A stretch of DNA of 64,000 nt from Pristiophorus japonicus (lineage: Eukaryota). Below are positions 1 to 53,131 of the stretch, one piece after another. The stretch's first letter is position 1; the number at the start of each line of letters is the position of its first letter. The stretch lies in the NCBI RefSeq assembly GCF_044704955.1, contig NC_091987.1, positions 154,194,001 to 154,258,000 on the forward strand, in the 5' to 3' direction. Under the pieces are notes generated by a model. It searched no databases. It was not told the DNA's origin and saw only the letters and a program-made list of their open reading frames with translations. The translations under genes and the position numbers were made by a program.

Positions 1-3000
1 GTGCGGCGTTCCCTCAGTACTGCCCCTCCGACAGTGCGGCGTTCCCTCAGTAATGCCCCTCCGACACTGCGGTGCTCCCTCAGTACTGCCCTTCCGACAG
101 TGCAGCACTCCTTCAGTACTGCCCCTCCGACAGTGCAGTGCTCCCTCAGTACTGCCCCTCCGACAGTGCAGCGCCCCTTCACTACTACCCCTCCAACACT
201 GCAACGCTCCCTCAGTACTGCCCCTCCGACAGTGCGGCGCTCCCTCAGTACTGCTCCTCCGACAGTGCAGCACTCCCTCAGTACTGCCCCTCCGACAGTG
301 CAGTGCTCCCTCAGTACTGCCCCTCTGACAGTGCAGCGCTCCCTCAGTACTGTCCCTCTGACAGTAGACCATTCCCTCAGTACTGCCCCTCCGACAGTGC
401 TGCGCTCCCTCAGTACTGCCCCTCAGACAGTGCACCGCTCCCTCAGTACTGCCCCTCAGACAGTGCGGCACTCCCGCAGTACATGCCCCTCAGACAGTGC
501 GGCACTCCCTCAGTACTGCCCCTCAGACACTGCAGCGCTCCCTCAGTACTGCCCCTCAGACAGTGCAGCGCTCCCTCAGTACTGCTCCTCAGACAGTGCG
601 CCACTCCCTCAGTACTGCCCCTCAGAGAGTGAACCATTCCCTCAGTACTGCCCCTCCGACAGTGCAGTTCTCCCTCAGTACTGCCCCTCCGACAGTGCGG
701 TGCTCCCTCAGTACTGCCCTTCAGACAGTGCAGCGCTCCCTCAGTACTGCCCCTCCGACAGAGCAGCACTCCCTCAGTACTGCCCCTCCGACAATGCGGC
801 GCTCACCCAGTACTGCCCCTCCAACACTGCAGCACTTCCTCAGTACTGCCCCTCCGTCAGTGCGGCGCTCCCTCAGTACTGCCCCTCCAACAGTGCAGCA
901 GTCCCTCAGTACTGCCCCTCCGACAGTGCAGCACTCTCTCAGTACTGCCCCTCAGACAGTGAACCATTCCCTCAGTACTGCCCCTCCGACAGTGCAGCGC
1001 TCCCTCAGTACTGCTCCTCAGACAGTGCGCCACTCCCTCAGTACTGCCCCTCCGTCAGTGCGGCGCTCCCTCAGTACTGCCCCTCCAACAGTGCAGCAGT
1101 CCCTCAGTACTGCCCCTCCGACAGTGCGGCGTTCCCTCAGTACTGCCCCTCCGACAGTGCAGTGCTCCCTCAGTACTGCCCCTCAGACAGTGCAGCACTC
1201 TCTCAGTACTGCCCCTCAGACAGTGAACCATTCACTCAGTACTGCCCCTCAGACAATGCAGCGCTCCCTCAGTACTGCTCCTCAGACAGTGCGCCACTCC
1301 CTCAGTACTGCCCCTCCGACAGTGCGGCGTTCCCTCAGTACTGCCCCTCCGACAGTGCAGTGCTCCCTCAGTACTGCCCCTCCGACAGTGCAGCACTCTC
1401 TCAGTATGCCCCTCAGACAGTGAACCATTCCCTCAGTACTGCCCCTCCGACAGTGCAGTTCTCCCTCAGTACTGCCCCTCCGACAGTGCGGTGCTCCCTC
1501 AGTACTGCCCTTCAGACAGTGCAGCGCTCCCTCAGTACTGCCCCTCCGACAGAGCAGCACTCCCTCAGTACTGCCCCTCCGACAGTGCGGCGCTCCCTCA
1601 GTGCTGCCACTCCGACAGTGCGGCGCTCACCCAGTACTGCCCCTCCAACACTGCAGCGCTTCCTCAGGACTGCCCCTACGTCAGTGCGGCGCTCCCTCAG
1701 TACTGCCCCTCCAACAGTGCAGCAGTCCCTCAGTACTGCCCCTCCGACAGTGCGGGGCTCCCTCAGTCCTGCCCCTCCGACAGTGCAACGCTCCCTCAGT
1801 ACTGCCCCTCCGACAGTACGATGCTCCCTCAGTACTGCCCCTCCGACACTGCAGTGCTCCCTCAGTACTGCCCCTCCAACAGTGCGGCGCTCCCTCAGTA
1901 CTGCCCCTCCTACAGTGCAGCGCTCCCTCAGTACTGCCCCTCCAACAGTGCAGCACTCCCTCAGTACTGCCCCTCTGACAGTGCTGCGCTTCCTCAGTAC
2001 TGCCCCTCCGACAGTGCGGCGTTCCCTCAGTACTGCCCCTCCGACAGTGCAGCGCTCCCTCAGCATTGCCCCTCAGACAGTGAATCATTCCCTCAGTACT
2101 GCCCCTCCGACAGTGCGGTGCTCCCTCAGTATTGCCCCTCCGACAGTGCAGCGCTCCCTCAGTACTGCCCCTCCGACAGTGCCGCACTCCCTCATTCCTG
2201 CCCCTCTGACAGTGCGGTGCTCCCTCAGTACTGCCCCTCCGACAGTGAAGTGCTCCCTCAGTACTGCCCCTCTGACAGTGCGGTGCTCCCTCAGTCCTGC
2301 CCCTCCGACAGTGCAACGCTCACTCAGTACTGCCCCTCCGACAGTGCAGCAGTCCCTCAGTACTGCCCCTCCGACAGTACGATGCTCCCTCAGTACTGCC
2401 CCTCCGACACTGCAGTGCTCCCTCAGTACTGCCCCCCCGACAGTGCAGTGCTCCCTCAGTACTGCCCCTCCGACAGTGCAGCACTCCCTCAGTACTGCCC
2501 CTCCGGCAGTGCAGTGCTCCCTCAGTACTGCCCCTCCGACAGTGCAGTGCTCCCTCAGTACTGCCCGTCTGACAGTGCTGCGCTCCCTCACTACTGTCCC
2601 TCTGACTGTAGGCCATTCCCTCAGTACTGCCCCTCCAACAGTGCGGCGCACCCTCAGTACTGCCCCTCAGACAGTGCGGCACTCCCTCAGTACTGCTCCT
2701 CAGACAGTGCGCCACTCCCTCAGTACTGCTCCTCCGACAGTGAACCATTCCCTCAGTACTGCCCCTCAGACAGTGAACCATTCCCTCAGTACTGCCCCTC
2801 CGACAGTGCAGTGCTCCCTCAGTACTGCCCCTCCGACAGTGCAGCACTCCCTCAGTACTGCCCCTCAGACAGTGAACCATTCCCTCAGTACTGCCCCTCC
2901 GACAGTGCAGTGCTCCCTCAGTACTGTCCTTCCGACAGTGCAGCACTCTCTCAGTACTGCACCTCAGACAGTGAACCATTCCCTCAGTACTGCCCCTCCG

Positions 3001-6000
3001 ACAGTGCAGTTCTCCCTCAGTACTGCCCCTCCGACAGTGCAGTGCGGTGCTCCCTCAGTACTGCCCTTCAGATAGTGCTGCGCTCCCTCAGTACTGCCCC
3101 TACGACAGTGCGGCGCTCCCTCAGTACTGCCCCTCAGACAGTGCGGCACTCCCTCAGTACTGTCCCTCAGACAGTGCGGCGCTCCCTCAGTACTGCCCCT
3201 CCGACAATGCGGCGCTCACCCAGTACTGCCCCTCCGACAGTGCAGTGCTCCGTCAGTATTGCCCCTCCGACAGTGCAGTGCCCCCTCAGTACTGCCCCTC
3301 CGACAGTGCAGCACTCCCTCAGTACTGCCCCTCTGGCAGTGCAGTGCTCCCTCAGTACTGCCCTTCCGACAGTGCAGTGCTCCCTCAGTACTGCCCCTCT
3401 GACAATGCTGCGCTCCCTCACTACTGTCCCTCTGACAGTAGGCCATTCCCTCAGTACTGCCCCTCCAACAGTGCGGCGCACCCTCAGTACTGCCCCTCAG
3501 ACAGTGTGGCACTCCCTCAGTACTGCTCCTCAGACAGTGCGCCACTCCCTCAGTACTGCCCCTCCGACAGTGCGGCGTTCCCTCAGTAATGCCCCTCCGA
3601 CAGTGCGGCACTCCCTCAATACTGCCCCTCCGACAGTGCGGTGCTCCCTCAGTACTGCCCCTCCGACAGTGCAGCACTCCCTCAGTACTGCCCCTCCGAC
3701 AGTGCAGTGCTCCCTCAGTACTGCCCCTCTGACAGTGCAGCGCTCCCTCAGTACTGTCCCTCTGACAGTAGACTATTCCCTCAGTATTGCCCCTCCGACA
3801 GTGCTGCGCTCCCTCAGTACTGCCCCTCAGACAGTGAACCATTCCCTCAGTACTGCCCCTCCAACAGTGCAGTGCTCCCTCAGTACTGCCCTTCCGACAG
3901 TGCAGCACTCTCTCAGTACTGCCCCTCAGACAGTGAACCATTCCCTCAGTACTGCCCCTCCGACAGTGCGGTTCTCCCTCAGTACTGCCCCTCCGACAGT
4001 GCGGTGCTCCCTCAGTACTGCCCTTCAGACAGTGCGGCGCTCCCTCAGTACTGCCCCTCCGACAGTGCGGCGCTCCCTCAGTACTGCCCCTCAGACAGTG
4101 CGGCACTCCCTCAGTACTGCCCCTCAGACAGTGCGGCGCTCCCTCAGTACTGCCCCTCCGACAATGCGGCACTCACCCAGTACTGCCCCTCCGAGAGTGC
4201 AGTGCTCCCTCAGTACTGCCCCTCCGACAGTGCAGTGCTCCCTCAGCTCTGCCCCTCCGACAGTGCAGCGCTCCCTCAGTACTGCCCCTCTGGCAGTGCA
4301 GTGCTCCATCAGTACTGCCCCTCCGACAGTGCGGCACTCCCTCAGTACTGCCCCTCCGACAGTGCGGCGTTCCCTCAGTAATGCCCCTCCGACAGTGCGG
4401 CACTCCCTCAGTACTGCCTCTCCGACACTGCGGTGCTCCCTCAGTACTGCCCCTCCGACAGTGGAGCACTCCCTCAGTACTGCCCCTCCGACAGTGCGGT
4501 GCTCCCTCAGTACTGCCCCTCCGACAGTGCAGTGCTCCCTCAGTACTGCCCTTCCGACAGTGCAGTGCTCCCTCAGTACTGCCCCTCTGACAGTGCTGCG
4601 CTCCCTCACTACTGTCCCTCTGACAGTAGACCATTCCCTCAGTACTGCCCCTCCAACAGTGCGGCGCACCCTCAGTACTGCCCCTCAGACAGTGTGGCAC
4701 TCCCTCAGTACTGCTCCTCAGACAGTGCGCCACTCCCTCAGTACTGCCCCTCCGACAGTGCGGCGTTCCCTCAGTAATGCCCCTCCGACAGTGCGGCACT
4801 CCCTCAATACTGCCCCTCCGACAGTGCGGTGCTCCCTCAGTACTGCCCCTCCGACAGTGCAGCACTCCCTCAGTACTGCCCCTCCGACAGTGCAGTGCTC
4901 CCTCAGTACTGCCCCTCTGACAGTGCAGCGCTCCCTCAGTACTGTCCCTCTGACAGTAGACCATTCCCTCAGTATTGCCCCTCCGACAGTTCTGCACTCC
5001 CTCAGTACTGCCCCTCAGACAGTGCGCCGCTCCCTCAGTACTGCCCCTCAGACAGTGCGGCACTCCCGCAGTACATGCCCCTCAGACAGTGCGGCACTCC
5101 CTCAGTACTGCCCCTCAGACACTGCAGCGCTCCCTCAGTACTGCCCCTCAGACAGTGCAGCGCTCCCTCAGTACTGCTCCTCAGACAGTGCGCCACTCCC
5201 TCAGTACTGCCCCTCCGACAGTGCGGCGTTCCCTCAGTACTGCCCCTCCGACAGTGCAGTGCTCCCTCAGTACTGCCCCTCCGACAGTGCAGCACTCCCT
5301 CAGTACTTCCCCTCAGACAGTGAACCATTCCCTCAGTACTGCCCCTCCGACAGTGCAGTGCTCCCTCAGTACTGCCCTTCCGACAGTGCAGCACTCTCTC
5401 AGTACTGCCCCTCAGACAGTGAACCTTTCCCTCAGTACTGCCCCTCCGACAGTGCAGTTCTCCCTCAGTACTGCCCCTCCGACAGTGCGGTGCTCCCTCA
5501 GTACTGCCCTTCAGACAGTGCAGCGCTCCCTCAGTACTGCCCCTCCGACAGAGCAGCACTCCCTCAGTACTGCCCCTCCGACAGTGCGGCGCTCCCTCAG
5601 TGCTGCCACTCTGACAATGCGGCGCTCACCCAGTACTGCCCCTCCGACAGTGCAGCACTCCCTCAGTACTACCCCTCCGACAGTGCGGCGCTCCCTCAGT
5701 ACTGCCCCTCCAACAGTGCAGCAGTCCCTCAGTACTGCCCCTCCGACAGTGCAGTGCTTCCTCAGTACTGCCCCTCCAACAGTGCGGCGCTCCCTCAGTC
5801 CTGCCCCTCCAACAGTGCAGCACTCCCTCAGTACTGCCCTTCTGACAGTGCTGCGCTTCCTCAGTACTGCCCCTCCGACAGTGCGGCGTTCCCTCAGTAC
5901 TGCCCCTCCGACAGTGAACCATTCCCTCAGTACTGCCCCTCCGACAATGCGACGCTCACCTAGTACTGCCCCTCCGACAATGCGGCGCTCACCCAGTACT

Positions 6001-9000
6001 GCCCCTCCAACACTGCAGCGCTTCCTCAGTACTGCCCCTCCGACAGTGCGGTGCTCCCTCAGTATTGCCCCTCCGACAGTGCCGCACTCCCTCATTCCTG
6101 CCCCTCCGACAGTGCGGTGCTCCCTCAGGACTGCCCCTCCGACAGTGCAGCAGTCTCTCAGTACTGCCCTTCCGACAGTGCGGGGCTCCCTCAGTCCTGC
6201 CTCTCCGATAGTGCAACGCTCCCTCAGTACTGCCCCTCCGACAGTGCAGCAGTCCCTCAGTACTGCCCCTCCGACAGTACGATGCTCCCTCAGTACTGCC
6301 CCTCCGACACTGCAGTGCTCCCTCAGTACTGCCCCTCCGACAGTGCAGCACTCCCTCAGTACTGCCCCTCCGGCAGTGCAGTGCTCCCTCAGTACTGCCC
6401 CTCCGACAGTGCAGTGCTCCCTCAGTACTGCCCCTCAGACAGTGTGGCACTCCCTCAGTACTGCTCCTCAGACAGTGCGCCACTCCCTCAGTACTGCCCC
6501 TCCGACAGTGCGGCACTCCCTCAATACTGCCCCTCCGACAGTGCGGTGCTCCCTCAGTACTGCCCCTCCGACAGTGCAGCACTCCCTCAGTACTGCCCCT
6601 CCGACAGTGCAGTGCTCCCTCAGTTCTGCCCCTCAGACAGTGCGGCACTCCCTCAGTACTGCCCCTCAGACAGTGCGGCGCTCCCTCAGTACTGCCCCTC
6701 ACACAGTGCGGCACACCCTCAGTACTGCTCCTCCGACAGTGCGGCACTCCCTCAGTACTGCCCCTCCGACACTGCGGTGCTCCCTCAGTACTGCCCTTCC
6801 GACAGTGCAGCACTCCTTCAGTACTGCCCCTCCGACAGTGTAGTGATCCCTCAGTACTGCCCCTCCGACAGTGCAGTGCCCCTTTACTACTACCCCTCCA
6901 ACACTGCAACGCTCCCTCAGTACTGCCCCTCCGACAGTGCGGCGCACCCTCAGTACTGCTCCTCCGACAGTGAACCATTCCCTCAGTACTGCCCCTCAGA
7001 CAGTGAACCATTCCCTCAGTACTGCCCCTCCGACAGTGCAGTGCTCCCTCAGTACTGCCCGTCCGACAGTGCAGCACTCTCTCAGTACTGCCCCTCAGAC
7101 AGTGAACCATTCCCTCAGTACTGCCCCTCCGACAGTGCAGTTCTCCCTCAGTACTGCCCCTCCGACAGTGCGGTGCTCCCTCAGTACTGCCCTTCAGACA
7201 GTGCGGCGCTCCCTCAGTACTGCCCCTCCGACAGTGCGGCGCTCCCTCAGTACTGCCCCTCAGACAGTGCGGCACTCCCTCAGTACTGCCCCTCAGACAG
7301 TGCGGCGCTCCCTCAGTACTGCCCCTCCGCCAATGCGGCGCTCACCCAGTACTGCCCCTCCGAGAGTGCAGTGCTCCCTCAGTACTGCCCCTCCGACAGT
7401 GCAGTGCTCCCTCAGCTCTGCCCCTCCGACAGTGCAGCGCTCCCTCAGTACTGCCCCTCTGACAGTGCAGTGCTGCATCAGTACTGCCCCTCCGACAGTG
7501 CAGTGCTCCCTCAGTACTGCCCCTCTGACAGTGCTGCGCTCCCTCACGACTGTCCCTCTGACAGTAGGCCATTCCCTCAGTACTGCCCCTCCAACAGTGC
7601 GGCGCACCCTCAGTACTGCCCCTCAGACAGTGTGGCACTCCCTCAGTACTGCTCCTCAGACAGTGCGGCACTCCCTCAATACTGCCCCTCCGACAGTGCG
7701 GTGCTCCCTCAGTACTGCCCCTCCGACAGTGGAGCACTCCCTCAGTACTGCCCCTCCGACAGTGCGGTGCTCCCTCAGTACTGCCCCTCCGACAGTGCGG
7801 CGCTCCCTCAGTACTGCCCCTCAGACAGTGCGGCACTCCCTCAGTACTGCCCCTCCGACAGTGCGGCGTTCCCTCAGTAATGCCCCTCCGACAGTGCGGC
7901 ACTCCCTCAGTACTGCCTCTCCGACACTGCGGCACTCCCTCAATACTGCCCCTCCGACAGTGCGGTGCTCCCTCAGTACTGCCCCTCCGACAGTGCAGCA
8001 CTCCCTCAGTACTGCCCCTCCGACAGTGCAGTGCTCCCTCAGTACTGCCCCTCTGACAGTGCAGCGCTCCCTCAGTACTGTCCCTCTGACAGTAGACCAT
8101 TCCCTCAGTATTGCCCCTCCGACAGTTCTGCACTCCCTCAGTACTGCCCCTCAGACAGTGCGCCGCTCCCTCAGTACTGCCCCTCAGACAGTGCGGCACT
8201 CCCGCAGTACATGCCCCTCAGACAGTGCGGCACTCCCTCAGTACTGCCCCTCAGACACTGCAGCGCTCCCTCAGTACTGCCCCTCAGACAGTGCAGCGCT
8301 TCCTCAGTACTGCTCCTCAGACAGTGCGCCACTCCCTCAGTACTGCCCCTCCGACAGTGCGGCGTTCCCTCAGTACTGCCCCTCCGACAGTGCAGTGCTC
8401 CCTCAGTACTGCCCCTCCGACAGTGCAGCACTCCCTCAGTACTTCCCCTCAGACAGTGAACCATTCCCTCAGTACTGCCCCTCCGACAGTGCAGTGCTCC
8501 CTCAGTACTGCCCTTCCGACAGTGCAGCACTCTCTCAGTACTGCCCCTCAGACAGTGAACCTTTCCCTCAGTACTGCCCCTCCGACAGTGCAGTTCTCCC
8601 TCAGTACTGCCCCTCCGACAGTGCGGTGCTCCCTCAGTACTGCCCTTCAGACAGTGCAGCGCTCCCTCAGTACTGCCCCTCCGACAGAGCAGCGCTCCCT
8701 CAGTACTACCCCTCCGACAGAGCAGCGCTCCCTCAGTACTGCCCCTCCGACAGTGAACCTTTCCCTCAGTACTACCCCTCCGACAGTGCAGCACTCTCTC
8801 AGTACTGCCCCTCAGACAGTGAACCTTTCCCTCAGTACTGCCCCTCCGACAGTGCGGTGCTCCCTCAGTATTGCCCCTCCGACAGTGCAGCGCTCCCTCA
8901 GTACTGCCCCTCCGACAGTGCCGCACTCCCTCATTCCTGCCCCTCTGACAGTGCGGTGCTCCCTCAGTACTGCCCCTCCGACAGTGAAGTGCTCCCTCAG

Positions 9001-24000: not shown

Positions 24001-27000
24001 CGACAGTGCGGTGCTCCCTCAGTACTGCCCCTCCGACAGTGCGGCGCTCCCTCAGTACTGCCCCTCAGACAGTGCGGCACTCCCTCAGTACTGCCCCTCC
24101 GACAGTGCGGCGTTCCCTCAGTAATGCACCTCCGACAGTGCGGCACTCCCTCAGTACTGCCCCTCCGACACTGCGGTGCTCCCTCAGTACTGCCCTTCCG
24201 ACAGTGCAGCACTCCCTCAGTACTGCCCCTCCGACAGTGCAGCGCCTCTTTACTACTACCCCTCCAACACTGCAACGCTCCCTCAGTACTGCCCCTCCGA
24301 CAGTGCGGCGCTCCCTCAGTACTGCTCCTCCGACAGTGCAGCACTCCCTCAGTACTGCCTCTCCGACAGTGCAGTGCTCCCTCAGTACTGCCCCTCCGAC
24401 AGTGCGGCACTCCCTCAGTACTGCCCCTCAGACAATGAGGCACTCCCTCAGTACTGCCCCTCAGACAGTGCGGCACTCCCTCAGTACTGCCCCTCCGACA
24501 GTGCGGCACTCCCTCAGTACTGCCCCTCTGACAGTGCGCCACTCCCTTAGTACTGCCCCTCCGACAGTGCTGCGCTCCCTCAGTACTGCCCCTCCAACAC
24601 TGCAGCGCTCCCTCAGTACTGCCCCTCCGACAGTGCAGTGCTCCCTCAGTACTGCCCCTCTGACAGTGCTGCGCTCCCTCAGTACTGCCCCTCCAACAGT
24701 GCAGTGCTCCCTCAGTACTGCCCCTCTGACAGTGCTGCGCTCCCTCAGTACTGCCCCTCCGACAGTGCGCCGCTCCCTCAGTACTGTCCCTCAGACAGTG
24801 CAGCGCTCCCACAGTACTGCCCCTCCAACACTGCAGCGCTTCCTCAGTACTGCCCCTCCGTCAGTGCGGCGCTCCCTCAGTACTGCCCCTCCAACACTGC
24901 AGCGCTCCCTCAGTACTGCCCCTCCGACAGTGCAGTGCTCCCTCAGTACTGCCCCTCCGACAGTGCTGCGCTCCCTCAGTACTGCCCCTCCAACAGTGCA
25001 GTGCTCCCTCAGTACTGCCCCTCCGACAGTGCTGCGCTCCTTCAGTACTGTCCCTCAGACAGTGCAGCGCTCCCACAGTACTGCTCCTCAGACAGTGCGC
25101 CACTCCCTCAGTACTGCCCCTCCGACAGTGCAGCAGTCACTCAGTACTGCCCTTCCGACAGTGCGGGGCTCCCTCAGTTCTGCCCCTCCGACAGTGCAGC
25201 ACTCCCTCAGTACTGCCCTTCCGACAGTGCAGTGCTCCCTCAGTCCTGCCCCTCCGACAGTGCAACGCTCCCTCAGTACTGCCCCTCCGACAGTGCAGCA
25301 GTCCCTCAGTACTGTCCCTCCGACAGTACGATGCTCCCTCAGTCCTGCCCCTCCGACAGTGCGGCACTCCCTCAGTACTGCCCTACCAACACTGCAGCGC
25401 TCCGTCAATAATGCCCCTATGACAGTGCGGCGCTCCCTCAGTACTGCCCCTCCGACAGTGCTGCGCTCCCTCAGTACTGCCCCTCTGACAGTGCTGCGCT
25501 CCCTCAGTACTGCCCCTCCAACAGTGCAGTGCTCCCTCAGTACTGCCCCTCTGACAGTGCTGCGCTCCCTCAGTACTGCCCCTCCGACAGTGCGCCGCTC
25601 CCTCAGTACTGTCCCTCAGACAGTGCAGCGCTCCCACAGTACTGCCCCTCCAACACTGCAGCGCTTCCTCAGTACTGCCCCTCCGTCAGTGCGGCGCTCC
25701 CTCAGTACTGCCCCTCCAACACTGCAGCGCTCCCTCAGTACTGCCCCTCCGACAGTGCAGTGCTCCCTCAGTACTGCCCCTCTGACAGTGCTGCGCTCCC
25801 TCAGTACTGCCCCTCCAACAGTGCAGTGCTCCCTCAGTACTGCCCCTCTGACAGTGCTGCGCTCCCTCAGAACTGCCCCTCCGACAGTGCGCCGCTCCCT
25901 CAGTACTGTCCCTCAGACAGTGCAGCGCTCCCACAGTACTGCTCCTCAGACAGTGCGCCACTCCCTCAGTACTGCCCCTCCGACAGTGCAGCAGTCACTC
26001 AGTACTGCCCTTCCGACAGTGCGGGGCTCCCTCAGTTCTGCCCCTCCGACAGTGCAGCACTCCCTCAGTACTGCCCTTCCGACAGTGCAGTGCTCCCTCA
26101 GTCCTGCCCCTCCGACAGTGCAACGCTCCCTCAGTACTGCCCCTCCGACAGTGTAGCACTCCCTTAGTACTGCCCCTCTGAAAGTGCCGCACTCCCTCAG
26201 TACGGCTCCTCCAACAGTGCAGCACTCCCTCAGTACTGCCCCTCCGACAGTGCGGGTCTCCCTCAGTACTGCCCCTCCGACAGTGCAGCGCTACCTCAGT
26301 ACTACCCCTCAGACAGTGCGGCGCTCGCTCAGTACTGCCCCTCCGACAGTGCCGCACTCCCTCATTCCTGCCCCTCCGACAGTGCGGCGCTCCCTCAGTA
26401 CTGCCCCTCCGACAATGCGACGCTCACCCAGTACTGCCCCTCCGACAGTGCAGTGCTCCCTCAGTACTGCCCCGACGACAGTGCAGTGCTCCCTCAGTAC
26501 TGCCCCTCCGATAGTGCAGCACTCCCTCAGTACTGCCCCTCCGGCAGTGCAGTGCTCCCTCATACTGCCCCTCCGACAGTGCAGTGCTCCCTCAGTACTG
26601 CCCCTCTGACAGTGCTGCGCTCCCTCACTACTGTCCCTCTGACAGTAGGCCATTCCCTCAGTACTGCCCCTCCAACAGTGCGGCGCACCCTCAGTACTGC
26701 TCCTCAGACAGTGCGGCACTCCCTCAATACTGCCCCTCCGACAGTGTGGTGCTCCCTCAGTACTGCCCCTCCGACAGTGCAGCACTCCCTCAGTACTGCC
26801 CCTCCGACAGTGCGGTGCTCCCTCAGTACTGCCCCTCCGACAGTGCGGCGCTCCCTCAGTACTGCCCCTCAGACAGTGCGGCACTCCCTCAGTACTGCCC
26901 CTCCGACAGTGCGGCGTTCCCTCAGTAATGCCCCTCCGACAGTGCGGCACTCCCTCAATACTGCCCCTCCGACACTGCGGTGCTCCCTCAGTACTGCCCT

Positions 27001-30000
27001 TCCGACAGTGCAGCACTCCTTCAGTACTACCCCTCCAACACTGCAACGCTCCCTCAGTACTGCCCCTTCGACAGTGCAGTGCTCCCTCAGTATTGCCCCT
27101 CTGACAGTGCTGCGCTCCCTCAGTACTGTCCCTATGACAGTAGACCATTCCCTCAGTACTGCCCCTCCAACAGTGCGGCGCACCCTCAGTACTGCCCCTC
27201 AGACAGTGTGGCACTCCCTCAGTACTGCTCCTCAGACAGTGCGCCACTCCCTCAGTACTGCCCCTCCGACAGTGCGGCGTTCCCTCAGTAATGCCCCTCC
27301 GACAGTGCGGCACTCCCTCAATACTGCCCCTCCGACAGTGCGGTGCTCCCTCAGTACTGCCCCTCCGACAGTGCAGCACTCCCTCAGTACTGCCCCTCCG
27401 ACAGTGCTGCGCTCCCTCAGTACTGCTCCTCCAACAGTGCAGTGCTCCCTCAGTACTGCCCCTCTGACAGTGCTGCGGTCCCTCAGTACTGCCCCTCCGA
27501 CAGTGCGCCGCTCCCTCAGTACTGTCCCTCAGACAGTGCAGCGCTCCCACAGTACTGCCCCTCCGACACTGCAGCGCTTCCTCAGTACTGCCCCTCCGTC
27601 AGTGCAGCACTCCCTCAGTACTGCCCCTCCGACAGTGCAGCGCCCCTTTACTACTACCCCTCCAACACTGCAACGCTCCCTCAGTACTGCCCCTCCGACA
27701 GTGCGGCGCTCCCTCAGTACTGCTCCTCCGACAGTGCAGCACTCCCTCAGTACTGCCTCTCCGACAGTGCAGTGCTCCCTCAGTACTGCCCCTCTGACAG
27801 TGCAGCGCTCCCTCAGTACTGCCCCTCAGACAGTGCGGCACTCCCTCAGTACTGCCCCTCAGACAGTGCGGCACTCCCTCAGTACTGCCCCTCAGACAGT
27901 GCGGCACTCCCTCAGTACTGCCCCTCCGACAGTGCGGCACTCCCTCAGTACTGCCCCTCTGACAGTGCGCCACTCCCTCAATACTGCCCCTCCGACACTG
28001 CGGTGCTCCCTCAGTACTGCCCTTCCGACAGTGCAGCACTCCTTCAGTACTACCCCTCCAACACTGCAACGCTCCCTCAGTACTGCCCCTTCGACAGTGC
28101 AGTGCTCCCTCAGTATTGCCCCTCTGACAGTGCTGCGCTCCCTCAGTACTGTCCCTCTGACAGTAGACCATTCCCTCAGTACTGCCCCTCCAACAGTGCG
28201 GCGCACCCTCAGTACTGCCCCTCAGACAGTGTGGCACTCCCTCAGTACTGCTCCTCAGACAGTGCGCCACTCCCTCAGTACTGCCCCTCCGACAGTGCGG
28301 CGTTCCCTCAGTAATGCCCCTCCGACAGTGCGGCACTCCCTCAATACTGCCCCTCCGACAGTGCGGCACTCCCTCAGTACTGCCCCTCCGACAGTGCGGT
28401 GCTCCCTCAGTACTGCCCCTCCGACAGTGCGGCGCTCCCTCAGTACTGCCCCTCAGACAGTGCGGCACTCCCTCAGTACTGCCCCTCCGACAGTGCGGCG
28501 TTCCCTCAGTAATGCACCTCCGACAGTGCGGCACTCCCTCAGTACTGCCCCTCCGACACTGCGGTGCTCCCTCAGTACTGCCCTTCCGACAGTGCAGCAC
28601 TCCCTCAGTACTGCCCCTCCGACAGTGCAGCGCCCCTTTACTACTACCCCTCCAACACTGCAACGCTCCCTCAGTACTGCCCCTCCGACAGTGCGGCGCT
28701 CCCTCAGTACTGCCCCTCCGACAGTGCAGCACTCCCTCAGTACTGCCCCTCCGACAGTGCGGTGCTCCCTCAGTACTGCCCCTCCGACAGTGCGGCGCTC
28801 CCTCAGTACTGCCCCTCAGACAGTGCGGCACTCCCTCAGTACTGCCCCTCCGACAGTGCGGCGTTCCCTCAGTAATGCCCCTCCGACAGTGCGGCACTCC
28901 CTCAATACTGCCCCTCCGACACTGCGGTGCTCCCTCAGTACTGCCCTTCCGACAGTGCAGCACTCCTTCAGTACTACCCCTCCAACACTGCAACGCTCCC
29001 TCAGTACTGCCCCTTCGACAGTGCAGTGCTCCCTCAGTATTGCCCCTCTGACAGTGCTGCGCTCCCTCAGTACTGTCCCTCTGACAGTAGACCATTCCCT
29101 CAGTACTGCCCCTCCAACAGTGCGGCGCACCCTCAGTACTGTCCCCTCAGACAGTGTGGCACTCCCTCAGTACTGCTCCTCAGACAGTGCGCCACTCCCT
29201 CAGTACTGCCCCTCCGACAGTGCGGCGTTCCCTCAGTAATGCCCCTCCGACAGTGCGGCACTCCCTCAATACTGCCCCTCCGACAGTGCGGTGCTCCCTC
29301 AGTACTGCCCCTCCGACAGTGCAGCACTCCCTCAGTACTGCCCCTCCGACAGTGCTGCGCTCCCTCAGTACTGCTCCTCCAACAGTGCAGTGCTCCCTCA
29401 GTACTGCCCCTCTGACAGTGCTGCGCTCCCTCAGTACTGCCCCTCCGACAGTGCGCCGCTCCCTCAGTACTGTCCCTCAGACAGTGCAGCGCTCCCACAG
29501 TACTTCCCCTCCGACACTGCAGCGCTTCCTCAGTACTGCCCCTCCGTCAGTGCAGCACTCCCTCAGTACTGCCCCTCCGACAGTGCAGCGCCCCTTTACT
29601 ACTACCCCTCCAACACTGCAACGCTCCCTCAGTACTGCCCCTCCGACAGTGCGGCGCTCCCTCAGTACTGCTCCTCCGACAGTGCAGCACTCCCTCAGTA
29701 CTGCCTCTCCGACAGTGCAGTGCTCCCTCAGTACTGCCCCTCTGACAGTGCAGCGCTCCCTCAGTACTGCCCCTCAGACAGTGCGGCACTCCCTCAGTAC
29801 TGCCCCTCAGACAGTGCGGCACTCCCTCAGTACTGCCCCTCAGACAGTGCGGCACTCCCTCAGTACTGCCCCTCCGACAGTGCGGCACTCCCTCAGTACT
29901 GCCCCTCTGACAGTGCGCCACTCCCTCAATACTGCCCCTCCGACACTGCGGTGCTCCCTCAGTACTGCCCTTCCGACAGTGCAGCACTCCTTCAGTACTA

Positions 30001-32701
30001 CCCCTCCAACACTGCAACGCTCCCTCAGTACTGCCCCTTCGACAGTGCAGTGCTCCCTCAGTATTGCCCCTCTGACAGTGCTGCGCTCCCTCAGTACTGT
30101 CCCTCTGACAGTAGACCATTCCCTCAGTACTGCCCCTCCAACAGTGCGGCGCACCCTCAGTACTGCCCCTCAGACAGTGTGGCACTCCCTCAGTACTGCT
30201 CCTCAGACAGTGCGCCACTCCCTCAGTACTGCCCCTCCGACAGTGCGGCGTTCCCTCAGTAATGCCCCTCCGACAGTGCGGCACTCCCTCAATACTGCCC
30301 CTCCGACAGTGCGGTGCTCCCTCAGTACTGCCCCTCCGACAGTGCAGCACTCCCTCAGTACTGCCCCTCCGACAGTGCGGTGCTCCCTCAGTACTGCCCC
30401 TCCGACAGTGCGGCGCTCCCTCAGTACTGCCCCTCAGACAGTGCGGCACTCCCTCAGTACTGCCCCTCCGACAGTGCGGCGTTCCCTCAGTAATGCACCT
30501 CCGACAGTGCGGCACTCCCTCAGTACTGCCCCTCCGACACTGCGGTGCTCCCTCAGTACTGCCCTTCCGACAGTGCAGCACTCCCTCAGTACTGCCCCTC
30601 CGACAGTGCAGCGCCCCTTTACTACTACCCCTCCAACACTGCAACGCTCCCTCAGTACTGCCCCTCCGACAGTGCGGCGCTCCCTCAGTACTGCTCCTCC
30701 GACAGTGCAGCACTCCCTCAGTACTGCCTCTCCGACAGTGCAGTGCTCCCTCAGTACTGCCCCTCCGACACTGCAGCGCTCCCTCAGTACTGCCCCTCCG
30801 ACAGTGCAGTGCTCCCTCAGTACTGCCCCTCTGACAGTGCTGCGCTCCCTCAGTACTGCCCCTCCAACAGTGCAGCGCTCCCTCAGTACTGCCCCTCCGA
30901 CAGTGCGCCGCTCCCTCAGTACTGTCCCTCAGACAGTGCAGCGCTCCCACAGTACTGCCCCTCCAACACTGCAGCGCTTCCTCAGTACTGCCCCTCCGTC
31001 AGTGCGGCGCTCCCTCAGTACTGCCCCTCCAACACTGCAGCGCTCCCTCAGTACTGCCCCTCCGACAGTGCAGTGCTCCCTCAGTACTGCCCCTCTGACA
31101 GTGCTGCGCTCCCTCAGTACTGCCCCTCCAACAGTGCAGTGCTCCCTCAGTACTGCCCCTCTGACAGTGCTGCGCTCCCTCAGTACTGCCCCTCCGACAG
31201 TGCGCCGCTCCCTCAGTACTGTCCCTCAGACAGTGCAGCGCTCCCACAGTACTGCCCCTCCGACAGTGCAGCAGTCCCTCAGTACTGTCCCTCCGACAGT
31301 ACGATGCTCCCTCAGTCCTGCCCCTCCGACAGTGCGGTGCTCCCTCAGTACTGCCTTTCCGACAGTGCAGCACTCCCTCAGTTCTGCACCTCCGACAGTG
31401 CAGTGCTCCCTCAGTACTGCCCCTCTGACAGTAGGCCATTCCCTCAGTACTGCCCCTCCGACAGTGCGGCGCTCCCTCAGTACTGCCCTTCCGACAGTGC
31501 AGTGCTCCCTCAGTACAGTCCCTCCGACAGTGCAGCACTCCCTCAGTACTGCCCCTCCGGCATTGCAGTGCTCCCTCAATACTGCCTCTCCGACAGTGCA
31601 GTGCTCCCTCAGTACTGCCCCTCTGACGGTGCGGCGCTCACTCAATACTGCCCCTCCGACAGTGCGGGGCTCCCGCATTACTGCCCTTCCGACAGTGCAG
31701 CGCTCCCTCAGTACTGTCCCTCCGACAGTGCTGCGCTCCCTAGGTACTGCCCCTCCGACAGTGCGGCGCTCCCTCAGTACTGCCCCTCCGACAGTGCGGG
31801 GCTCCCTCAGTACTGCCCCTCCGACAGTGCAGTGCTACCTCAGTACTACCCCTCAGACAGTGCGGCGTTCTCTCAGTACTGCCCCTCCGACAGTGCCGCA
31901 CTCCCTCATTCCTGCCCTTCCGACAGTGCAGCAGTCCCTCAGTACTGCCCCTCCGACAGTACGGTGCTCCCTCAGTCCTGCCCCTCCGACAGAGCAGCGC
32001 TCCCTCAGTACTGCCCCTCCGACGGTGCGGTGCTCCCTCAGTACTGCCCCTCTGACAGTGCAGCGCTCCCTCAGTACTGCCCCTCCGACGGTGCGGCGCT
32101 CCCTCAGTACTGCCCCTCCGACAGAGCAGCGCTCCCTCAGTACTGCCCCTCCGACACTTCGGCGCTCCCTCAGTACTGCCTCTCAGACAGTGTGGCGCTC
32201 CCTCAGTACTGCCCCTCCGACAGAGCAGCGCTCCCTCAGTACTGCCTCTCAGACAGTGTGGTGCTCCCTCTCTACTGCCCCTCCGAAAGTGCCGCACTCC
32301 CTCAGTACGGCCCCTCCAGCAGTGCAGCACTCCCTCAGTACTGCCCCTCCGACAGTGCGGGGCTCCCTCAGTACTGCCCCTCCGACAGTGTGGCACTCCC
32401 TCAGTACTGCCCCTTGGACAGTGCGTCGCTCCCTCAGTACTGCCCCTTAGACAGTGCGTCGCTCCCTCAGTACTGCCCCTTAGACAGTGCGGCGCTCCCT
32501 CAGTACTGCCCCTTAGACAGTGCAGCGCTCCCTCAGTACTGCCCCTTAGACAGTGCAGCGCTCCCTCAGTACTGCCCCTTAGACAGTGCAGCGCTCCCTC
32601 AGCACTCATGCTCCGACATTGCGTCGCTCGCTCAGTACTACCCCTCTGACAGTGCAGCACTCCCTCAGTACTGCCCCTCTGACAGTGGGGCACTCCCTCA
32701 G
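1..32701. repeat. 33-bp tandem satellite/minisatellite array (~990 units; runs off the left window edge)
   Basis: Continuous units of consensus CTCCCTCAGTACTGCCCCTCCGACAGTGCRGYR with no spacers; the 11-aa periodicity in the translated frames reflects the 33-bp period. Confidence 0.99.
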
Positions 32702-32949
32702 TGTCATGTATCTTACATTATTATATATAACTGTATCCTAATATGCTATACATGACTCTAATAAGATTTGACCTGTAACCACCAGCATACCTTACCACCA
32801 AGGGTGCACTTGCAAGAGACAGGTATATCAGGACAGGTCTCAGGCAAGTGCAGCATTCCAGAGCTGTGAAATAAAGGTGCAGGTACAGAGTGACCTTGAC
32901 TTCACTACATGCCTCGTGTGAATCTGTACTGAGGGGACAGGACTTTACA
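32702..32949 (+). repeat. 5' LTR (248 bp)
   Basis: TGTCATG...CTTTACA, contains AATAAA; direct repeat of 34774-35002. Confidence 0.95.
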
Positions 32950-32950
32950 G

Positions 32951-32969
32951 TGGCGATGAGGGTGGGATT
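32951..32969 (+). promoter_or_regulatory. Primer binding site, probably tRNA-Ser(GCU)
   Basis: TGGCGATGAGGGTGGGATT 1 nt after the LTR; near-complementary to the vertebrate tRNA-Ser(GCU) 3' end as recalled (...AATCCCAYCCTCGTCG-CCA). Confidence 0.75.
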
Positions 32970-34746
32970 GGGTGCGTTTTGCAACATGTCAATAGTGCGG
33001 GCAAATTACAACCCATAGCTTATGCCTGCAGGTCACTTTCGTGGGCGGAGCGCGGGTACGGAATGGTAGAGAAGGAGGCGCTCGATTGCGTGTACGGTGT
33101 CAAAAAGATGCTCCAATAGCTTTTCGGGGCCAAGTTCGCGTTAGAAACCGACCACAAGCCCCTCACGTCCCTCCTATCCGAGAACAAGGCAATAAACGCC
33201 AACGCCTCGGCGCGAATTCAACGGTGGGCACTCATGCTGGCTATACCATAAGGCACAGACCAGGCACAGACAACTATGCCGACGCGCTCAGCAGGCTACC
33301 CCTGGCGACCACGGAAGGCTCTGACGAACAGGACTGTGAGATAGTCATGGCAATCAATGCCTTTGAGTCCACAGGTTCGCCCATGGCGGCTCGCCAAATC
33401 AGAGCCTGGACGGCCAGCGACCCCACATTATCCTTAGTAAAAAGATGTGTCCTAACCGGTGACTGGGCAGAGGTTCGCGATGCCTGCCCCGAGGAATTAA
33501 AACCTTTCACAGACGCATGCATGAGCTATCACTACAAGCAGACTGCCTGATGTGGGGCAGCCGAGTAGTCATGCCTCTGCGAGGCAGAGAGGCATTTGTC
33601 CGGGAGCTCCAGCGCGAGCACCCGGGGATCGTTCTCATGAAGGCCATAGCCAGATGCCACGTCTGGTGGCCTGGTATTGAAGCGGACTTGGAGCTCTGCG
33701 TCCAAAGGTGCACCATTTGTGCCCAACTCAGCAATGCCCCCAGGGAGGCTCCACTGAGCCCCTGGCCGACCAAACCGTGGTCGCGGGTGCACGTAGACTA
33801 TGCGGGCCTATTCATGGGCAAAATGTTCCTCGTCGTTGTAGATGCATTTTCAAAGTGGATCGAATGCACCATTTTAAACTCGTGCACAACCTCCACCACT
33901 GTGGAGAGCCTCGCAACCATGTTTGCAACGCACGGAATCCCTGACATATTAGTCAGTGACAATGGTCCGTGCTTCACCAGCGCAGAATTCCAAGACTTTA
34001 TAATTCACCACGGCATAAATCACGTCAAGACGGCACCATTCAAGCCAGACTCCAACGGCCAGGTGGAGAGAGCAGTGCAAATCATTAAACAAGGCATGCT
34101 TAAAATCCAAGGTCCCACGCTGCAGGGTCACCTGTCGCGACTGCTGCTGGCATACAGATCTCGTCCGCACTCACTGACTGGGATCCCCCCCGTGCAACTG
34201 TTGATGAAAAGGACTTTAAAAACAAGACTCTCATTAATCCTCCCAGACATGCACGAAATCGTTGAGGCAAAGCGCCGTAAGCTGACTGAGTACCATGACA
34301 GAAATTCGAGGGGGAGATGGAATGAGATAGTGGACAAAGTATTTGTACTAAACTATGGAAGGGGTCCCAAATGGCTTGCAGGTACAGTAATGGGCAAGGA
34401 AGGAAACAGGCTACTGGTAGTACAAATGGACAATGGCAAAACCTGCCGGAGGCATGTAGACCAAGTCAAAAGCAGATTTACCAACAACACTGCGGAACCA
34501 GAGGCAGACCACAATGTGGAACTCACACCACACCTGGTGGACAGACAGAGGGAACAACCTGAGGAAAGGGCAATTCCAACAGACAACCCAGGCAAGTCAA
34601 CAACAATCACACCATTCGAAACAGACAGCCCAGGCGCGATACCAGCAACCACACCCAAAGAAAAACAGACACCAAGGCAAACAACTGAACCACAACTCAG
34701 ACGCTCCACGCGAGAGCGTAGACCACCTGAGAGACTGAACCTATAA
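32964..34746 (+). pseudogene. pol: Gypsy pol remnant: RNase H (stop, frameshifts) plus integrase ORF 33517-34746
   Basis: GIGCVLQ..PIAYACRSLS.AE..Y...EKEAL..TDHKPL RNase H motifs with TAG at ~33117; integrase HPG/CxxC and D-D-E motifs (HVDYAG, SDNG, VER). gag, protease and RT are absent. Confidence 0.92.
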
Positions 34747-34761
34747 AGACAATAAGACCTT

Positions 34762-34773
34762 GGGGGAGGGTGA
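34762..34773 (+). other. Polypurine tract
   Basis: GGGGGAGGGTGA immediately before the 3' LTR. Confidence 0.85.
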
Positions 34774-35002
34774 TGTCATGTATCTTACATTATTATATAT
34801 AAGTGTATCCTCACATGCTATACATGACTGTAATAAGATATGACTGTAACCACCAGCATACCTTGCAAGAGACAGGTATATAAGGACAGGTCTCAGGCAA
34901 GTGCAGCATTCCAGAGCTGTGAAATAAAGGTGCAGGTCCAGAGTGACCTTGACTTCATTACATGCCTCGTGTGAATCTGTACTGAGGAGACAGGACTTTA
35001 CA
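34774..35002 (+). repeat. 3' LTR (229 bp)
   Basis: Matches the 5' LTR with ~9 substitutions, an 18-bp and a 1-bp deletion (counted by eye). Confidence 0.95.
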
Positions 35003-35389
35003 CTCAGTACTGCCCGTTCGACAATGCAGCACTCCCCCAGTACTGGCCCTTGGACAGTGCGGCACTCCCTCAGTACTGACCTTCCGACAGTGCAGCACTC
35101 CCTCAGTACTGCCTACTGCCCCTCTGACAGTGTGGCGCTCCCTCAGTACTGCCTACTGCCCCTCTGACAGTGGGGCACTCCCTCAATACTGCCCCTTCGA
35201 CAGTGCAGCACTCCCCCAGTACTGGCCCTTGGACAGTGCAGCACTCCCTCAGCACTGACCCTCCGACAGTGTGCCGTTCCCTCAGTGCTGCCTCTCCGAC
35301 AGTGCAGCACTTCCTCAGTACTGCCCCTCCGTCAGTGCAGCGCTCCCTCAGTATTGCCCCTCCAACAGTGCGGCACTCCCTCAGTACTG
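35003..35389. repeat. Degenerate terminal block of the 33-bp array (~12 units)
   Basis: Same unit resumes in phase after the TSD; more diverged, with two CTGCCTACTGCC partial duplications. Confidence 0.97.
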
Positions 35390-35507
35390 ACGCGGGGGCG
35401 TGTCAGTCTAGATTATGAGCTCAGCCTCTGGAGTGGGGACTTGAACCCACAACATTCTGACTCAGATGCGAGAGAGAGAGAGCGCTAAACTCAAGTCGCC
35501 ACGGCTG
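35390..35507 (-). mobile_element. tRNA-derived SINE 5' head (resembles shark DeuSINE/SacSINE1-type) leading directly into the array
   Basis: Minus strand reads CAGCCGTGGC..(CT)n CGCATCTGAGTCAGAATGTTGTGGGTTCAAGTCCC..; Pol III B box GGGTTCAAGTCCC at 35436-35448; homologous to 48854-48962. Family name is from recall, not a search. Confidence 0.82.
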
Positions 35508-38900: not shown

Positions 38901-38988
38901 TGCATACGTGAGTCTGTATGTAAAAGAGCATGTGAATAAGTGTGTGTGTATAAGTGTGAGTGATTATATGTGAGTGTGTGAAATTGTG
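35925..38988. repeat. Complex GT-rich simple satellite (GTGTATAAGT/GTGA variants), left part
   Basis: Low-complexity (GT)n/TATAAG repeats; 36456-36867 is in the opposite orientation. Confidence 0.97.
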
Positions 38989-48460: not shown

Positions 48461-48817
48461 GCGCGCTGTCGGAGGGATGGACCATCCGAGCTTTGCCCAG
48501 GAGGGCCGTGAGCAGGTCTTGTGTGGTGATACCCTGTACTTTCGACTTTCCTTCACACCGTTACAAAGCCCTGCATGGGGCCTGGTTTAAGTACTGGCAT
48601 TACTGGAAGTATACCGTCGTCTACACAAAGGATCCCAAATATGGGATGTCCACATTCGTGGGACGAGCCAAAATAATTGGTGATTTGGAGCAGAAGAATT
48701 GCACCTTGAGGATCAATAATCTCAGACCCGATGACAGTGATGTGTATTACTTCTACGTGGATTTGGAGGGCTTCACGGATCATACCTTCACAGAACCTGT
48801 CCAGCTACAGGTTGTCC
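48461..48817 (+). CDS. Siglec-like gene, N-terminal V-set Ig exon
   Basis: Acceptor TTTCAG|, donor |GTAAGT, phase 1-1, 357 bp; Siglec V-set signature CVVIPCTF..W..GRA..GDL..NCTLRI..DS..YYF with B- and E-strand Cys and no F-strand Cys. Confidence 0.93.
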
Positions 48818-48853
48818 GTAAGTCTCCACTCCATTCACCCTCAGTCCGTCAAT

Positions 48854-48962
48854 GGCAGCCATGGCTCAGCTCTCTCTCTCTCGCCTCTGAGTTCAAAGGT
48901 CGTGGGAACAAGGCCTGACTCCAGGAGACTTGAGCACAAAATCCAGACTGATAGTCCAGTAT
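48854..48962 (+). mobile_element. tRNA-derived SINE 5' head, second copy
   Basis: GGCAGCCATGGCTCAG(CT)nCGCCTCTGAG..GTGGGAACAAGGCC..ACTCCAGGAGACTTGAGCACAAAATCCAGACTGA; colinear with 35390-35507 minus strand; B box degraded. Confidence 0.8.
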
Positions 48963-49520
48963 CGTACAGAGGGAGTACTGCACTGTCCGAGGGGCAGTAC
49001 TGAGGGAGTGCTGCATTATCCAAGGGGCAGTACTGATGGAGCGCCACACTGTTGGAGGGGTAGTGCTGAGGGAGCGCCGCAATGGCGGAGGGGCAGTACT
49101 GAGGGAGCGCCGCACTGTCGGAGGGGCAGTACTGAGGGAGCACTGCACTGTCGGAGGGTCAGTACTGAAGGAGGTCCGTACTGTCGGAAGGGTAGTATTG
49201 AGGGAGCATTGCACTGTCAGAGGAGCTGTAATGAAGGAGCGCTGCACTGTCAGAGGGGCAGTACTGAGGAAATGCCGCACTGATGGAGGGGCAGAACTGA
49301 AGGAGTTCTGTACTGTGAGAGGGGCAGTACTGAGGGAGCACTGAACTGTCGGAGGGGGGCAGTACTGAGGAAGCACTGCACTGTCGGAGGGGAAGTACTG
49401 AGGGAGTGCTGCACTGTCGTAGTGGCAGTATTGAGGGAGCGCTGCACTGTCGGAGGGGCAGTACTGAGGGAGTGTTGAACTGTCGGAGGGACAGTACTGA
49501 GGGAGCACTGAACTGTCGGA
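48963..49520. repeat. ~17 units of the same 33-bp repeat, opposite orientation to the main array
   Basis: CAGTACTGAGGGAGCGCCGCACTGTCGGAGGGG units. Confidence 0.97.
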
Positions 49521-49588
49521 GTGGAGGCTTGTGTGGAGCATAAACACTGGCATGAACCAGTTGGGCCTGCTGTAGACTCGATGTAATC
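49521..49588 (+). mobile_element. CR1-type 3' tail segment abutting the 33-bp array
   Basis: GGAGCATAAACACTGGCATGAACCAGTTGGGCC resembles GGAGGCATAAACACCGGCACAGACCAGTTGGGCC in the CR1 3' UTR at ~53609-53642. Confidence 0.72.
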
Positions 49589-52843: not shown

Positions 52844-53131
52844 ATGTTCCGGATAAACCTGAGATATTACTCCATGAGGATATAACCGAAGGGAATCCTG
52901 TGAATATAATCTGCAAATCTCTCTTCGCTTGCCCTGATAATCGTCCCATTCTAACCTGGAGTGAATTGCCTGAGTCCACTGTCAACACTGTCACCAAGAA
53001 CAGTGACGAGGTTTCCACTGTGCTGACCTTTAACCCTTCGTTCAAGCATCACGGACTAACTGTTCTCTGTACGGCCGACTTCCCTGAAACGAGCCATCGA
53101 CTGGTGAACTCTGTCACCTTGAGTGTAAAAT
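52844..53131 (+). CDS. Siglec-like gene, first C2-set Ig exon
   Basis: CCCAG| acceptor, |GTAAGT donor, phase 1-1, 288 bp; VPDKPEI..EG..VNIICKSLFACP..PILTW..LTFNPS..HHG..VLC..VTLSVK, including the extra Cys typical of Siglec domain 2. Confidence 0.93.

What the first reader, a model, noticed from the sequence alone, without database searches (positions are those of the whole stretch)
1..35507. A >35-kb satellite that grows out of the inside of a tRNA-derived SINE
Seen: on the minus strand a SINE head with an intact Pol III B box (35507-35390) reads directly into unit 1 of the 33-bp array, which then runs ~1000 units off the window edge. The same head-to-unit junction recurs independently at 48854-48963. 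Recalled: the unit resembles the CAGTACTGAGGGAGTGCTGCACTGTCGGAGG segment of shark DeuSINE-type elements. Inference: the satellite is a runaway amplification of one internal SINE segment, so SINE insertions seed arrays ranging from ~17 to ~1000 copies.
Basis: partly seen in the sequence, partly recalled or inferred. Interest (0 to 1): 0.75.

Follow-up and report, generated by a model that had tools for sequence, protein, structure and literature searches.

The report
Giant satellite inside one shark SINE
One copy of a short jumping DNA element, in what is likely a shark genome, is about 49 kb long because a 33-base piece of its middle is repeated about 1,400 times between its head and its tail; smaller versions crowd the chromosome ends and were likely copied into existing elements rather than invented afresh in each.

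Summary
The core observation holds, with corrections. The head (35507-35390, minus strand) leads into only 11 units. A 2.3-kb Gypsy-type LTR element with a 5-bp target duplication then splits the array. About 1,389 more units run to 13.15 kb left of the window, where the SINE body and tail resume. The whole 46-kb array therefore sits inside one SINE copy. The unit is the SINE's own hairpin segment, but with a changed junction base (G, where slippage would give T): 178,865 against 2,086 exact matches genome-wide. Independent runaway in each insertion is therefore unlikely. Arrays fill 38 of 51 copies in terminal zones and 0 of 13 further in. Arrayed copies are not one clade (AU p=0.008), and copies whose first unit has one allele mostly carry repeats with the other. 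Best reading: one old origin, spread into resident SINE copies by ectopic gene conversion near chromosome ends, then local growth; this locus grew recently by kilobase block duplications. SINE-derived satellites are known from squamates. The scan found this family twice before elsewhere in this genome and favoured an array-bearing parent element, which stays a serious rival.

The parts
35390..35507 (-). SINE head (Pol III type); B-box motif intact at 35447-35437, A box disrupted, short (CT)n expansion
   Evidence: 90% identity over 77 columns to a consensus built from 30 genomic copies
35003..35389 (-). first 11 units of the 33-bp array, more diverged (79% matches) than the long part (86%)
32702..35002 (+). 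internally deleted Gypsy-type LTR retrotransposon inserted into unit 12, antisense to the SINE; 5-bp target duplication at 35003-35007 and 32697-32701
   Evidence: integrase domains
32702..32949 (+). 5' LTR (TG...CA), followed by a primer-binding-site-like motif (motif recalled)
33463..34746 (+). integrase reading frame (Pfam rve E 9.5e-15, Integrase_H2C2 E 1e-07)
34774..35002 (+). 3' LTR preceded by a purine tract; 9 substitutions in 229 columns and two indels against the 5' LTR
1..32701 (-). main 33-bp array; continues 13,151 bases beyond the left edge (about 1,389 units in all) and ends in the SINE body and tail at G000:C11:154180849-154180578 (in L032)
48853..48960 (+). second SINE head, 80% identical to consensus, A and B boxes both degenerate, in an intron of a Siglec/MAG-like gene
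48961..49521 (+). second array, about 17 units, G junctions; no SINE body after it

Best explanation
This is a single SINE copy whose internal 33-bp segment is repeated about 1,400 times between its head and tail, and the repeat likely arose once, long ago, and likely spread into already-inserted SINE copies by ectopic gene conversion in recombination-rich chromosome zones before growing locally. Shown: the anatomy; the unit overlaps the strongest hairpin of the SINE, with a 4-base microhomology 33 bases apart; all arrays share a junction base that plain copies would not give; arrays are zone-restricted; arrayed copies are not one clade. Inferred: (1) a hairpin-assisted slip plus one T-to-G change made the founder; (2) a break in or near the hairpin of a resident copy is repaired from an array-bearing copy, the head and body serving as homology arms, so the recipient keeps its flanks and the start of unit 1 but gains donor units; (3) arrays then change length by slippage and unequal exchange; (4) here an LTR element inserted after unit 11 and the distal part later grew by duplication of 1-5 kb blocks.
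For: Junction G 178,865 vs T 2,086 exact matches; after head plus an identical first unit G 141, T 2, plain exit 281; 42 of 42 census arrays have majority G, T in 8 of 461 junctions. T-to-G is not a general hotspot: exit G 378 vs T 4,966, and 15 of 20 sampled G-exit copies are arrays. In arrays whose first unit has G at unit position 5, unit 2 has A in 19 of 28 and all later units A in 290 of 334 (30 loci, 2 scored as single); local slippage would copy G. No flank site is fixed in arrayed copies; label changes on the tree 32 vs 35.4 shuffled, 64 of 500 shuffles as low; one clade rejected, p-AU 0.008 (106 of 231 loci with near-full flanks, CpG columns masked). Array heads lie within 10 Mb of a contig end in 36 of 44 listed hits vs 9 of 92 plain. 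SINE-body density is the same in terminal (68 per 400 kb) and sub-terminal (32 per 200 kb) zones, yet arrays are 38 of 51 vs 0 of 11. Plain copies at ends carry an array-type base in 7 of 27 vs 0 of 30 inside. A flank allele 180 bases away shows the same pattern: G 7 of 25 in C1 0-11 Mb vs 3 of 85 in 11-29.5 Mb, at equal total density. Head-body linkage is present in plain copies (mean r2 0.039, 0 of 300 permutations) and weak in arrayed ones (0.021, p=0.07). Locally duplicated paralogs differ in unit number, about 31 vs 7. Hairpin z -2.66 in a plain copy, -0.25 in the array. Block duplications: 4,292 bp with 2 differences, 2,216 bp with 0, against 3.9% between the LTRs.
Against: No conversion event was caught directly; no orthologous plain/array pair was available. 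The tree is star-like (4 of 103 branches starred, bootstrap unsettled), and the AU test assumes no conversion. Arrayed copies are enriched for several flank alleles (H23 49 of 73 vs 4 of 26 interior plain; B180, B307), which also fits a few array-bearing parent lineages. The census does not reject arrays being extra insertions (p=0.14), unit-bearing loci are denser at ends (51 per 400 kb vs 11 per 200 kb), and terminal windows were placed where earlier hits were dense. A-first heads are over-represented among arrays (141:281 vs 157:2,102). A few arrays are all-G at position 5 or have T junctions, as local slippage would give. This locus is 67 Mb from the contig end, in an interstitial array-rich patch. 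Some rows scored 'plain' may be split arrays. Array length is from one assembly and was not checked with reads.
Confidence: 0.55

Rival explanations
1. One or a few parent SINEs already carried the G-junction repeat and were retrotransposed (VNTR carried as cargo, as in SVA); copies then grew near chromosome ends and were rare, or collapsed to one unit, elsewhere.
For: Shared junction and unit alleles; flank alleles enriched in arrayed copies with some linkage (H23-B180 r=0.29); the unit has no T run to stop Pol III (sequence); additive insertion not rejected (p=0.14); the same junction in other organisms; two earlier scan notes favoured it.
Against: One clade rejected; interior and sub-terminal copies are single-unit (0 of 13 arrayed in census, 28 of 30 single, the two arrays lying at 7.6 and 11 Mb); the enriched flank alleles are themselves confined to ends, so carriers did not insert genome-wide; headless arrays (16) are no commoner than bodiless ones (18 of 118), whereas 5' truncation would favour headless.
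Confidence: 0.3
2. One reading: each SINE insertion slips independently at the hairpin and runs away; the shared bases arise convergently through GC-biased conversion and context-dependent mutation in high-recombination zones.
For: A 4-base microhomology supports a 33-base slip, and such T-junction joints exist in 5 of 8 runs laid; zone restriction fits recombination-driven growth; most shared changes are weak-to-strong; a few arrays copy their own first-unit allele.
Against: G 141 vs T 2 at the very first junction; two-unit census arrays already have G; the A at position 5 in G-first arrays is a strong-to-weak change that GC bias cannot drive; no general rise of weak-to-strong changes in arrayed flanks (0.033 vs 0.034).
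Confidence: 0.1
3. The 46-kb length is inflated by mis-assembly of near-identical blocks; the real array is shorter.
For: 711 of 1,375 units lie in runs of 20 units found identically elsewhere in the array; one 2,216-bp repeat is exact.
Against: Most long blocks differ at 2-12 sites and recur at many different lags; no N in 184 kb; head, target duplication and tail are all in register; other arrays of at least 11-17 kb are implied on C3.
Confidence: 0.05

Closest known systems
SINE-derived satellites (sSat1-3) of squamates; Vassetzky et al. 2023, PMC10702118 (read parts 1-4 of 5)
   Same: Tandem unit taken from part of a tRNA-related SINE; loci from a few to about 1,200 units; one dominant unit shared across related species; subtelomeric bias.
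   Different: Unit 33 bp (theirs about 70-290); both SINE ends kept in 27 of 38 census arrays (there an uncommon variant); a shared derived junction base; evidence here on how arrays reach new loci, which the parts I read did not test; different vertebrate class.
Rsp-like satellite invading 1.688 clusters in Drosophila; Sproul et al. 2020, PMC7403614 (abstract and outline only)
   Same: A tandem repeat spreads into pre-existing dispersed repeats through repair, then expands locally by unequal exchange.
   Different: There the host is another satellite and entry is by microhomology; here the host is the SINE the unit came from, with long homology on both sides.
Mouse B1-derived VNTR family and Alu-derived minisatellites (table passages in review PMC9659126; primary papers not read)
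   Same: Tandem repeats grown from a fixed internal site of a SINE.
   Different: Six-base unit in B1; independent origin per copy is the usual reading (recalled), which the shared junction excludes here.
SVA retroposon VNTR (recalled; only passing passages in PMC8327921)
   Same: GC-rich VNTR between retroposon head and tail, variable in length.
   Different: In SVA every copy carries the VNTR (recalled); here most copies are single-unit and arrayed copies are not a clade.
SacSINE1 / DeuSINE family; PMC5499810 (passages; supplements unavailable)
   Same: tRNA-related head, about 465 bp (whale-shark copies up to 463 bp), abundant in cartilaginous fish; body resemblance recalled.
   Different: No alignment to the published consensus was possible; 'tandem' does not occur in that paper's main text.

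Membership tests
SINE-derived satellite (sSat kind) | tandem unit is a part of a SINE and shorter than it | tested here: met
   unit aligns to consensus positions 111-143 of about 465
SINE-derived satellite (sSat kind) | at least four middle monomers, at many loci | tested here: met
   about 1,400 units here; 136 arrays sampled
SINE-derived satellite (sSat kind) | terminal monomer continues into a SINE terminus | tested here: met
   both termini at this locus; 27 of 38 census arrays both, 1 neither
SINE-derived satellite (sSat kind) | subtelomeric preference | tested here: met
   36 of 44 vs 9 of 92 within 10 Mb of an end; this locus itself is interstitial
SINE-derived satellite (sSat kind) | longer loci are more homogeneous | tested here: inconclusive
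   86% matches in the long array vs 79-85% in short ones; 243 unit variants persist
tRNA-derived SINE | Pol III A and B boxes in a tRNA-like head | tested here: inconclusive
   box-like motifs in the consensus (motifs recalled); Rfam gave 0 matches at E<=1 on one plain copy
tRNA-derived SINE | short, non-coding, interspersed, high copy, simple-repeat tail | tested here: met
   14,919 exact matches of one 38-mer; consensus ends in a CT-rich tail
tRNA-derived SINE | 3' end shared with a partner LINE | not tested
   no partner LINE was sought
SacSINE1 / DeuSINE | Deu domain aligning to the published consensus | not testable with these tools
   no Repbase/Dfam; supplement unavailable; defining paper not held; only length agrees
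SVA-like retroposon with inherited VNTR | VNTR-bearing copies form a lineage with diagnostic flank sites | tested here: not met
   no fixed site; p-AU 0.008; low tree resolution
SVA-like retroposon with inherited VNTR | VNTR-bearing copies are dispersed like other copies | tested here: not met
Ty3/Gypsy LTR retrotransposon (the insert) | paired TG...CA LTRs, short target duplication, rve plus H2C2 integrase | tested here: met
Ty3/Gypsy LTR retrotransposon (the insert) | RT-RNaseH-integrase order | tested here: inconclusive
   the 5' internal part is deleted; the upstream frame gave no Pfam match

The most novel reading that the evidence does not exclude
The 33-bp array behaves as a self-spreading allele of the SINE: it homes into resident copies by ectopic, GC-biased gene conversion, has taken over about three quarters of copies in terminal chromosome zones in several related species, and occasionally runs away to tens of kilobases with both SINE ends intact, giving a complete series from 1 to 1,400 units and a built-in map of present and former recombination-rich chromosome ends.
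Probability: 0.45. Interest if true: 0.72.

Novelty: new variant of a known kind. Interest (0 to 1): 0.52.

Why it matters
How a tandem repeat reaches thousands of separate loci is an open step in satellite evolution. Here every array sits at the same site of a known ancestral sequence, both flanks survive, and copies range from 1 to about 1,400 units, so spread, growth and location effects can be separated by comparing orthologous insertions across related genomes. The family may hold about 16 Mb in about 45,000 arrays (rough extrapolation) and may explain part of the tandem-repeat excess reported for small shark chromosomes (PMC10620051, passages). No function is shown.

Tried and rejected
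Rfam scan of a plain copy: nothing. Long open frames across the array follow from a 33-base unit without stops; not genes. Telomere repeats in the 184 kb around the locus: none, so a former chromosome end is not shown. Mutation hotspot at the junction: rejected. Genome-wide insertion of array-bearing parents followed by collapse in interiors: disfavoured because carrier flank alleles are rare inside (B180 G in 2 of 29, 0 of 28, 0 of 9). Transcription: runs listed as RNA held small shares (0.04-0.15) or were guesses; no evidence either way. Raw-read runs X23 and X24 gave 45 and 2 reads: too few. Contig depth was not used as copy number. A transition-zone census (4-10 Mb from ends) was not obtained, so the boundary is placed only by pattern hits. 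Literature: no paper describing this shark array was found in nine searches of the held library (two searches returned 0); subscription journals, Repbase/Dfam and unseen supplements could still describe it.

Full report
Observation. Tandem Repeats Finder gives a 33-bp array at 1-32702 (990.5 copies, 86% matches), a separate one at 35003-35389 (11.3 copies) and a third at 48964-49521 (16.8 copies). The minus-strand head at 35507-35390 reads into the 11-unit piece. Between the pieces lies a 2,301-bp element with LTRs at 32702-32949 and 34774-35002, a 5-bp target duplication taken from the unit, and an integrase frame. The window is G000:C11:154194001-154258000 of a 5.9-Gb genome. In 120 kb fetched to the left the array continues for 13,151 bases, about 1,389 units in all, and then runs in register into the SINE body and tail (77% over 265 columns). 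Head to tail spans about 48.9 kb. That the animal is a shark is inferred from the recalled likeness of the SINE.

The host element. Thirty copies picked by the unit-to-body exit motif gave a consensus of about 465 bp: 110-bp head, 31-bp core, body and CT-rich tail; 28 of the 30 have one unit. The unit overlaps the best-folding 45-base window of the consensus; one plain copy folds with z -2.66 and a piece of the array with z -0.25. A 4-base microhomology flanks the core 33 bases apart; contigs that go back 33 bases with 4 shared letters occur in 5 of 8 runs laid. Rfam found nothing. SacSINE1 membership could not be tested; only the length agrees with PMC5499810 (passages).

The family. One exact 29-base junction occurs 178,865 times; scaling by its 37% share in census arrays gives roughly 480,000 junctions, 16 Mb and 45,000 arrays (rough). 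In four 100-kb terminal windows, placed where hits were dense, 38 of 51 unit-bearing loci are arrays of 2-35 units; in 200 kb of interior 0 of 2; in 200 kb at 14-21 Mb from ends 0 of 11. Of the 38, 32 have the head, 32 the body, 27 both, 1 neither; reversed-flank controls score 0 and 1 of 38. In the pooled set, which includes loci picked by head patterns, the figures are 106 of 132, 103 of 130 and 83 of 126, and the next longest complete array has 79 units. The same G junction appears as loose ends or joints in coded organisms B, D, E and F, so it is older than this genome's lineage if these are distinct species.

One origin, not many. A slip inside a plain copy leaves T at the junction. Exact counts are G 178,865 and T 2,086; after head plus the same first unit, G 141, T 2, plain 281. 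All 42 census arrays are majority G. At the exit, the same context has G only 378 times against 4,966. Arrays that begin with a G5 unit continue with A5 units (unit 2: 19 of 28; all later units 290 of 334; 20 of 30 in an earlier set). Independent slippage fails on both counts, although a few arrays fit it.

How it spread. A parent element carrying the repeat predicts a clade and genome-wide dispersal. No flank site is fixed in arrayed copies and divergence is similar (9.0% vs 9.4%). On a tree of 106 of 231 loci (near-full flanks, CpG columns masked) the label needs 32 changes against 35.4 shuffled, and one clade is rejected (p-AU 0.008); the tree is poorly resolved. Array heads are within 10 Mb of an end in 36 of 44 listed hits on eight contigs, plain copies in 9 of 92 (C7 left out for lack of its length). 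SINE bodies are equally dense in terminal and sub-terminal zones (17 and 16 per 100 kb), which fits replacement in place, but an additive model is not rejected (p=0.14). Several flank alleles rise from interior plain to terminal plain to arrayed copies (H23 0.15, 0.38, 0.67; B180 0.07, 0.27, 0.45) without forming one haplotype. For B180 on C1 the G share is 7 of 25 at 0-11 Mb and 3 of 85 at 11-29.5 Mb, with equal total density where hits occur. Head-body linkage is clear in 88 plain copies and weak in 90 arrayed ones. These patterns point to sequence exchange among copies restricted to terminal zones. I infer ectopic, partly GC-biased gene conversion as the carrier of the array (0.55). A few array-bearing parents with end-biased insertion remain possible (0.30); the enrichment of flank alleles and of A-first heads supports that rival.

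This locus. The 184 kb around it has 6 arrays among 9 loci and GC 0.51, although it lies 67 Mb from the contig end; no telomere repeats were found. Two local paralogs carry about 31 and 7 units, so length changes at the DNA level. The long array has 243 unit variants about 9% from consensus, arranged in repeated blocks: 129 units recur 7,036 bp away with 2 differences, 141 units with 12, 67 units with none; 1,028 of 1,375 units lie in repeated 10-unit runs, while the first 67 units next to the LTR do not. The LTRs differ by 3.9%, and the element is present once, so the big expansion is younger than the insertion and spared the head side (inferred). Unequal exchange or break-induced template switching would produce such blocks; mis-assembly is not excluded.

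Comparison. Squamate sSats reach about 1,200 units, prefer subtelomeres and rarely keep both SINE ends (PMC10702118, parts 1-4 of 5). The kind is therefore known. New here are the vertebrate class, the short unit, both ends as the rule, the size within one copy, and the evidence for spread into resident copies, for which Rsp-like in Drosophila is the nearest analogue (PMC7403614, abstract). Nine library searches found no description of this array. Two earlier notes of this scan describe the same family at other places; I had reached the shared-junction reading before seeing them, and my tests weigh against their inherited-duplication mechanism without excluding it.

Verdict. Real, partly mis-described, a new variant of a known kind; interest 0.52.

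Noticed in passing
window 48463-48816 (+), further exon-like frames near 52846-53130 and 57300-57530: Exons of a Siglec/MAG-like gene: V-set and Ig_CD22 Pfam matches, best structure match myelin-associated glycoprotein E 2e-17; the second array lies in the intron after the V-set exon. The 52846 frame gave no Pfam match; the third was read by eye only.
   Followed up: partly
window 36064-38979 and 41116-45501: Long degenerate 14-bp (TG/TA-rich) arrays with short inverted segments at 36457-36867, split by a LINE fragment.
   Followed up: no
window 49521-49570: The second array ends not in the SINE body but in a short piece matching the ends of LINE-like fragments elsewhere in the region (80-95%); CR1 label recalled.
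   Followed up: partly
window 32932-32942 (LTR end): The LTR end carries an 11-base match to the satellite unit; probably chance, but it lies next to the insertion site.
   Followed up: no
L034 and L033 (about 32.7 kb and 25.1 kb left of the window): A locally duplicated segment holds a headless array-bearing SINE joined back to back with an opposite-strand SINE piece; the two copies have about 31 and 7 units.
   Followed up: partly
G000:C3:3.03-3.04 Mb and C3:125.55-125.57 Mb: Spaced junction hits imply other long arrays of at least 11 and 17 kb, one of them interstitial.
   Followed up: no
G000:C3:229-232 Mb, C12:69-74 Mb, C13:75-87 Mb, C14:105-108 Mb, C17:29-33 Mb: Interstitial clusters of array-bearing SINE heads, possibly former chromosome ends or scaffold joins.
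   Followed up: no
SINE heads, e.g. window 35470-35484, L002, L015: A (CT)n microsatellite expands between the A and B boxes in many copies, including both heads in the window.
   Followed up: no
window 61804-62079: 46/62-bp tandem repeat in the 5' region of a minus-strand LINE.
   Followed up: no
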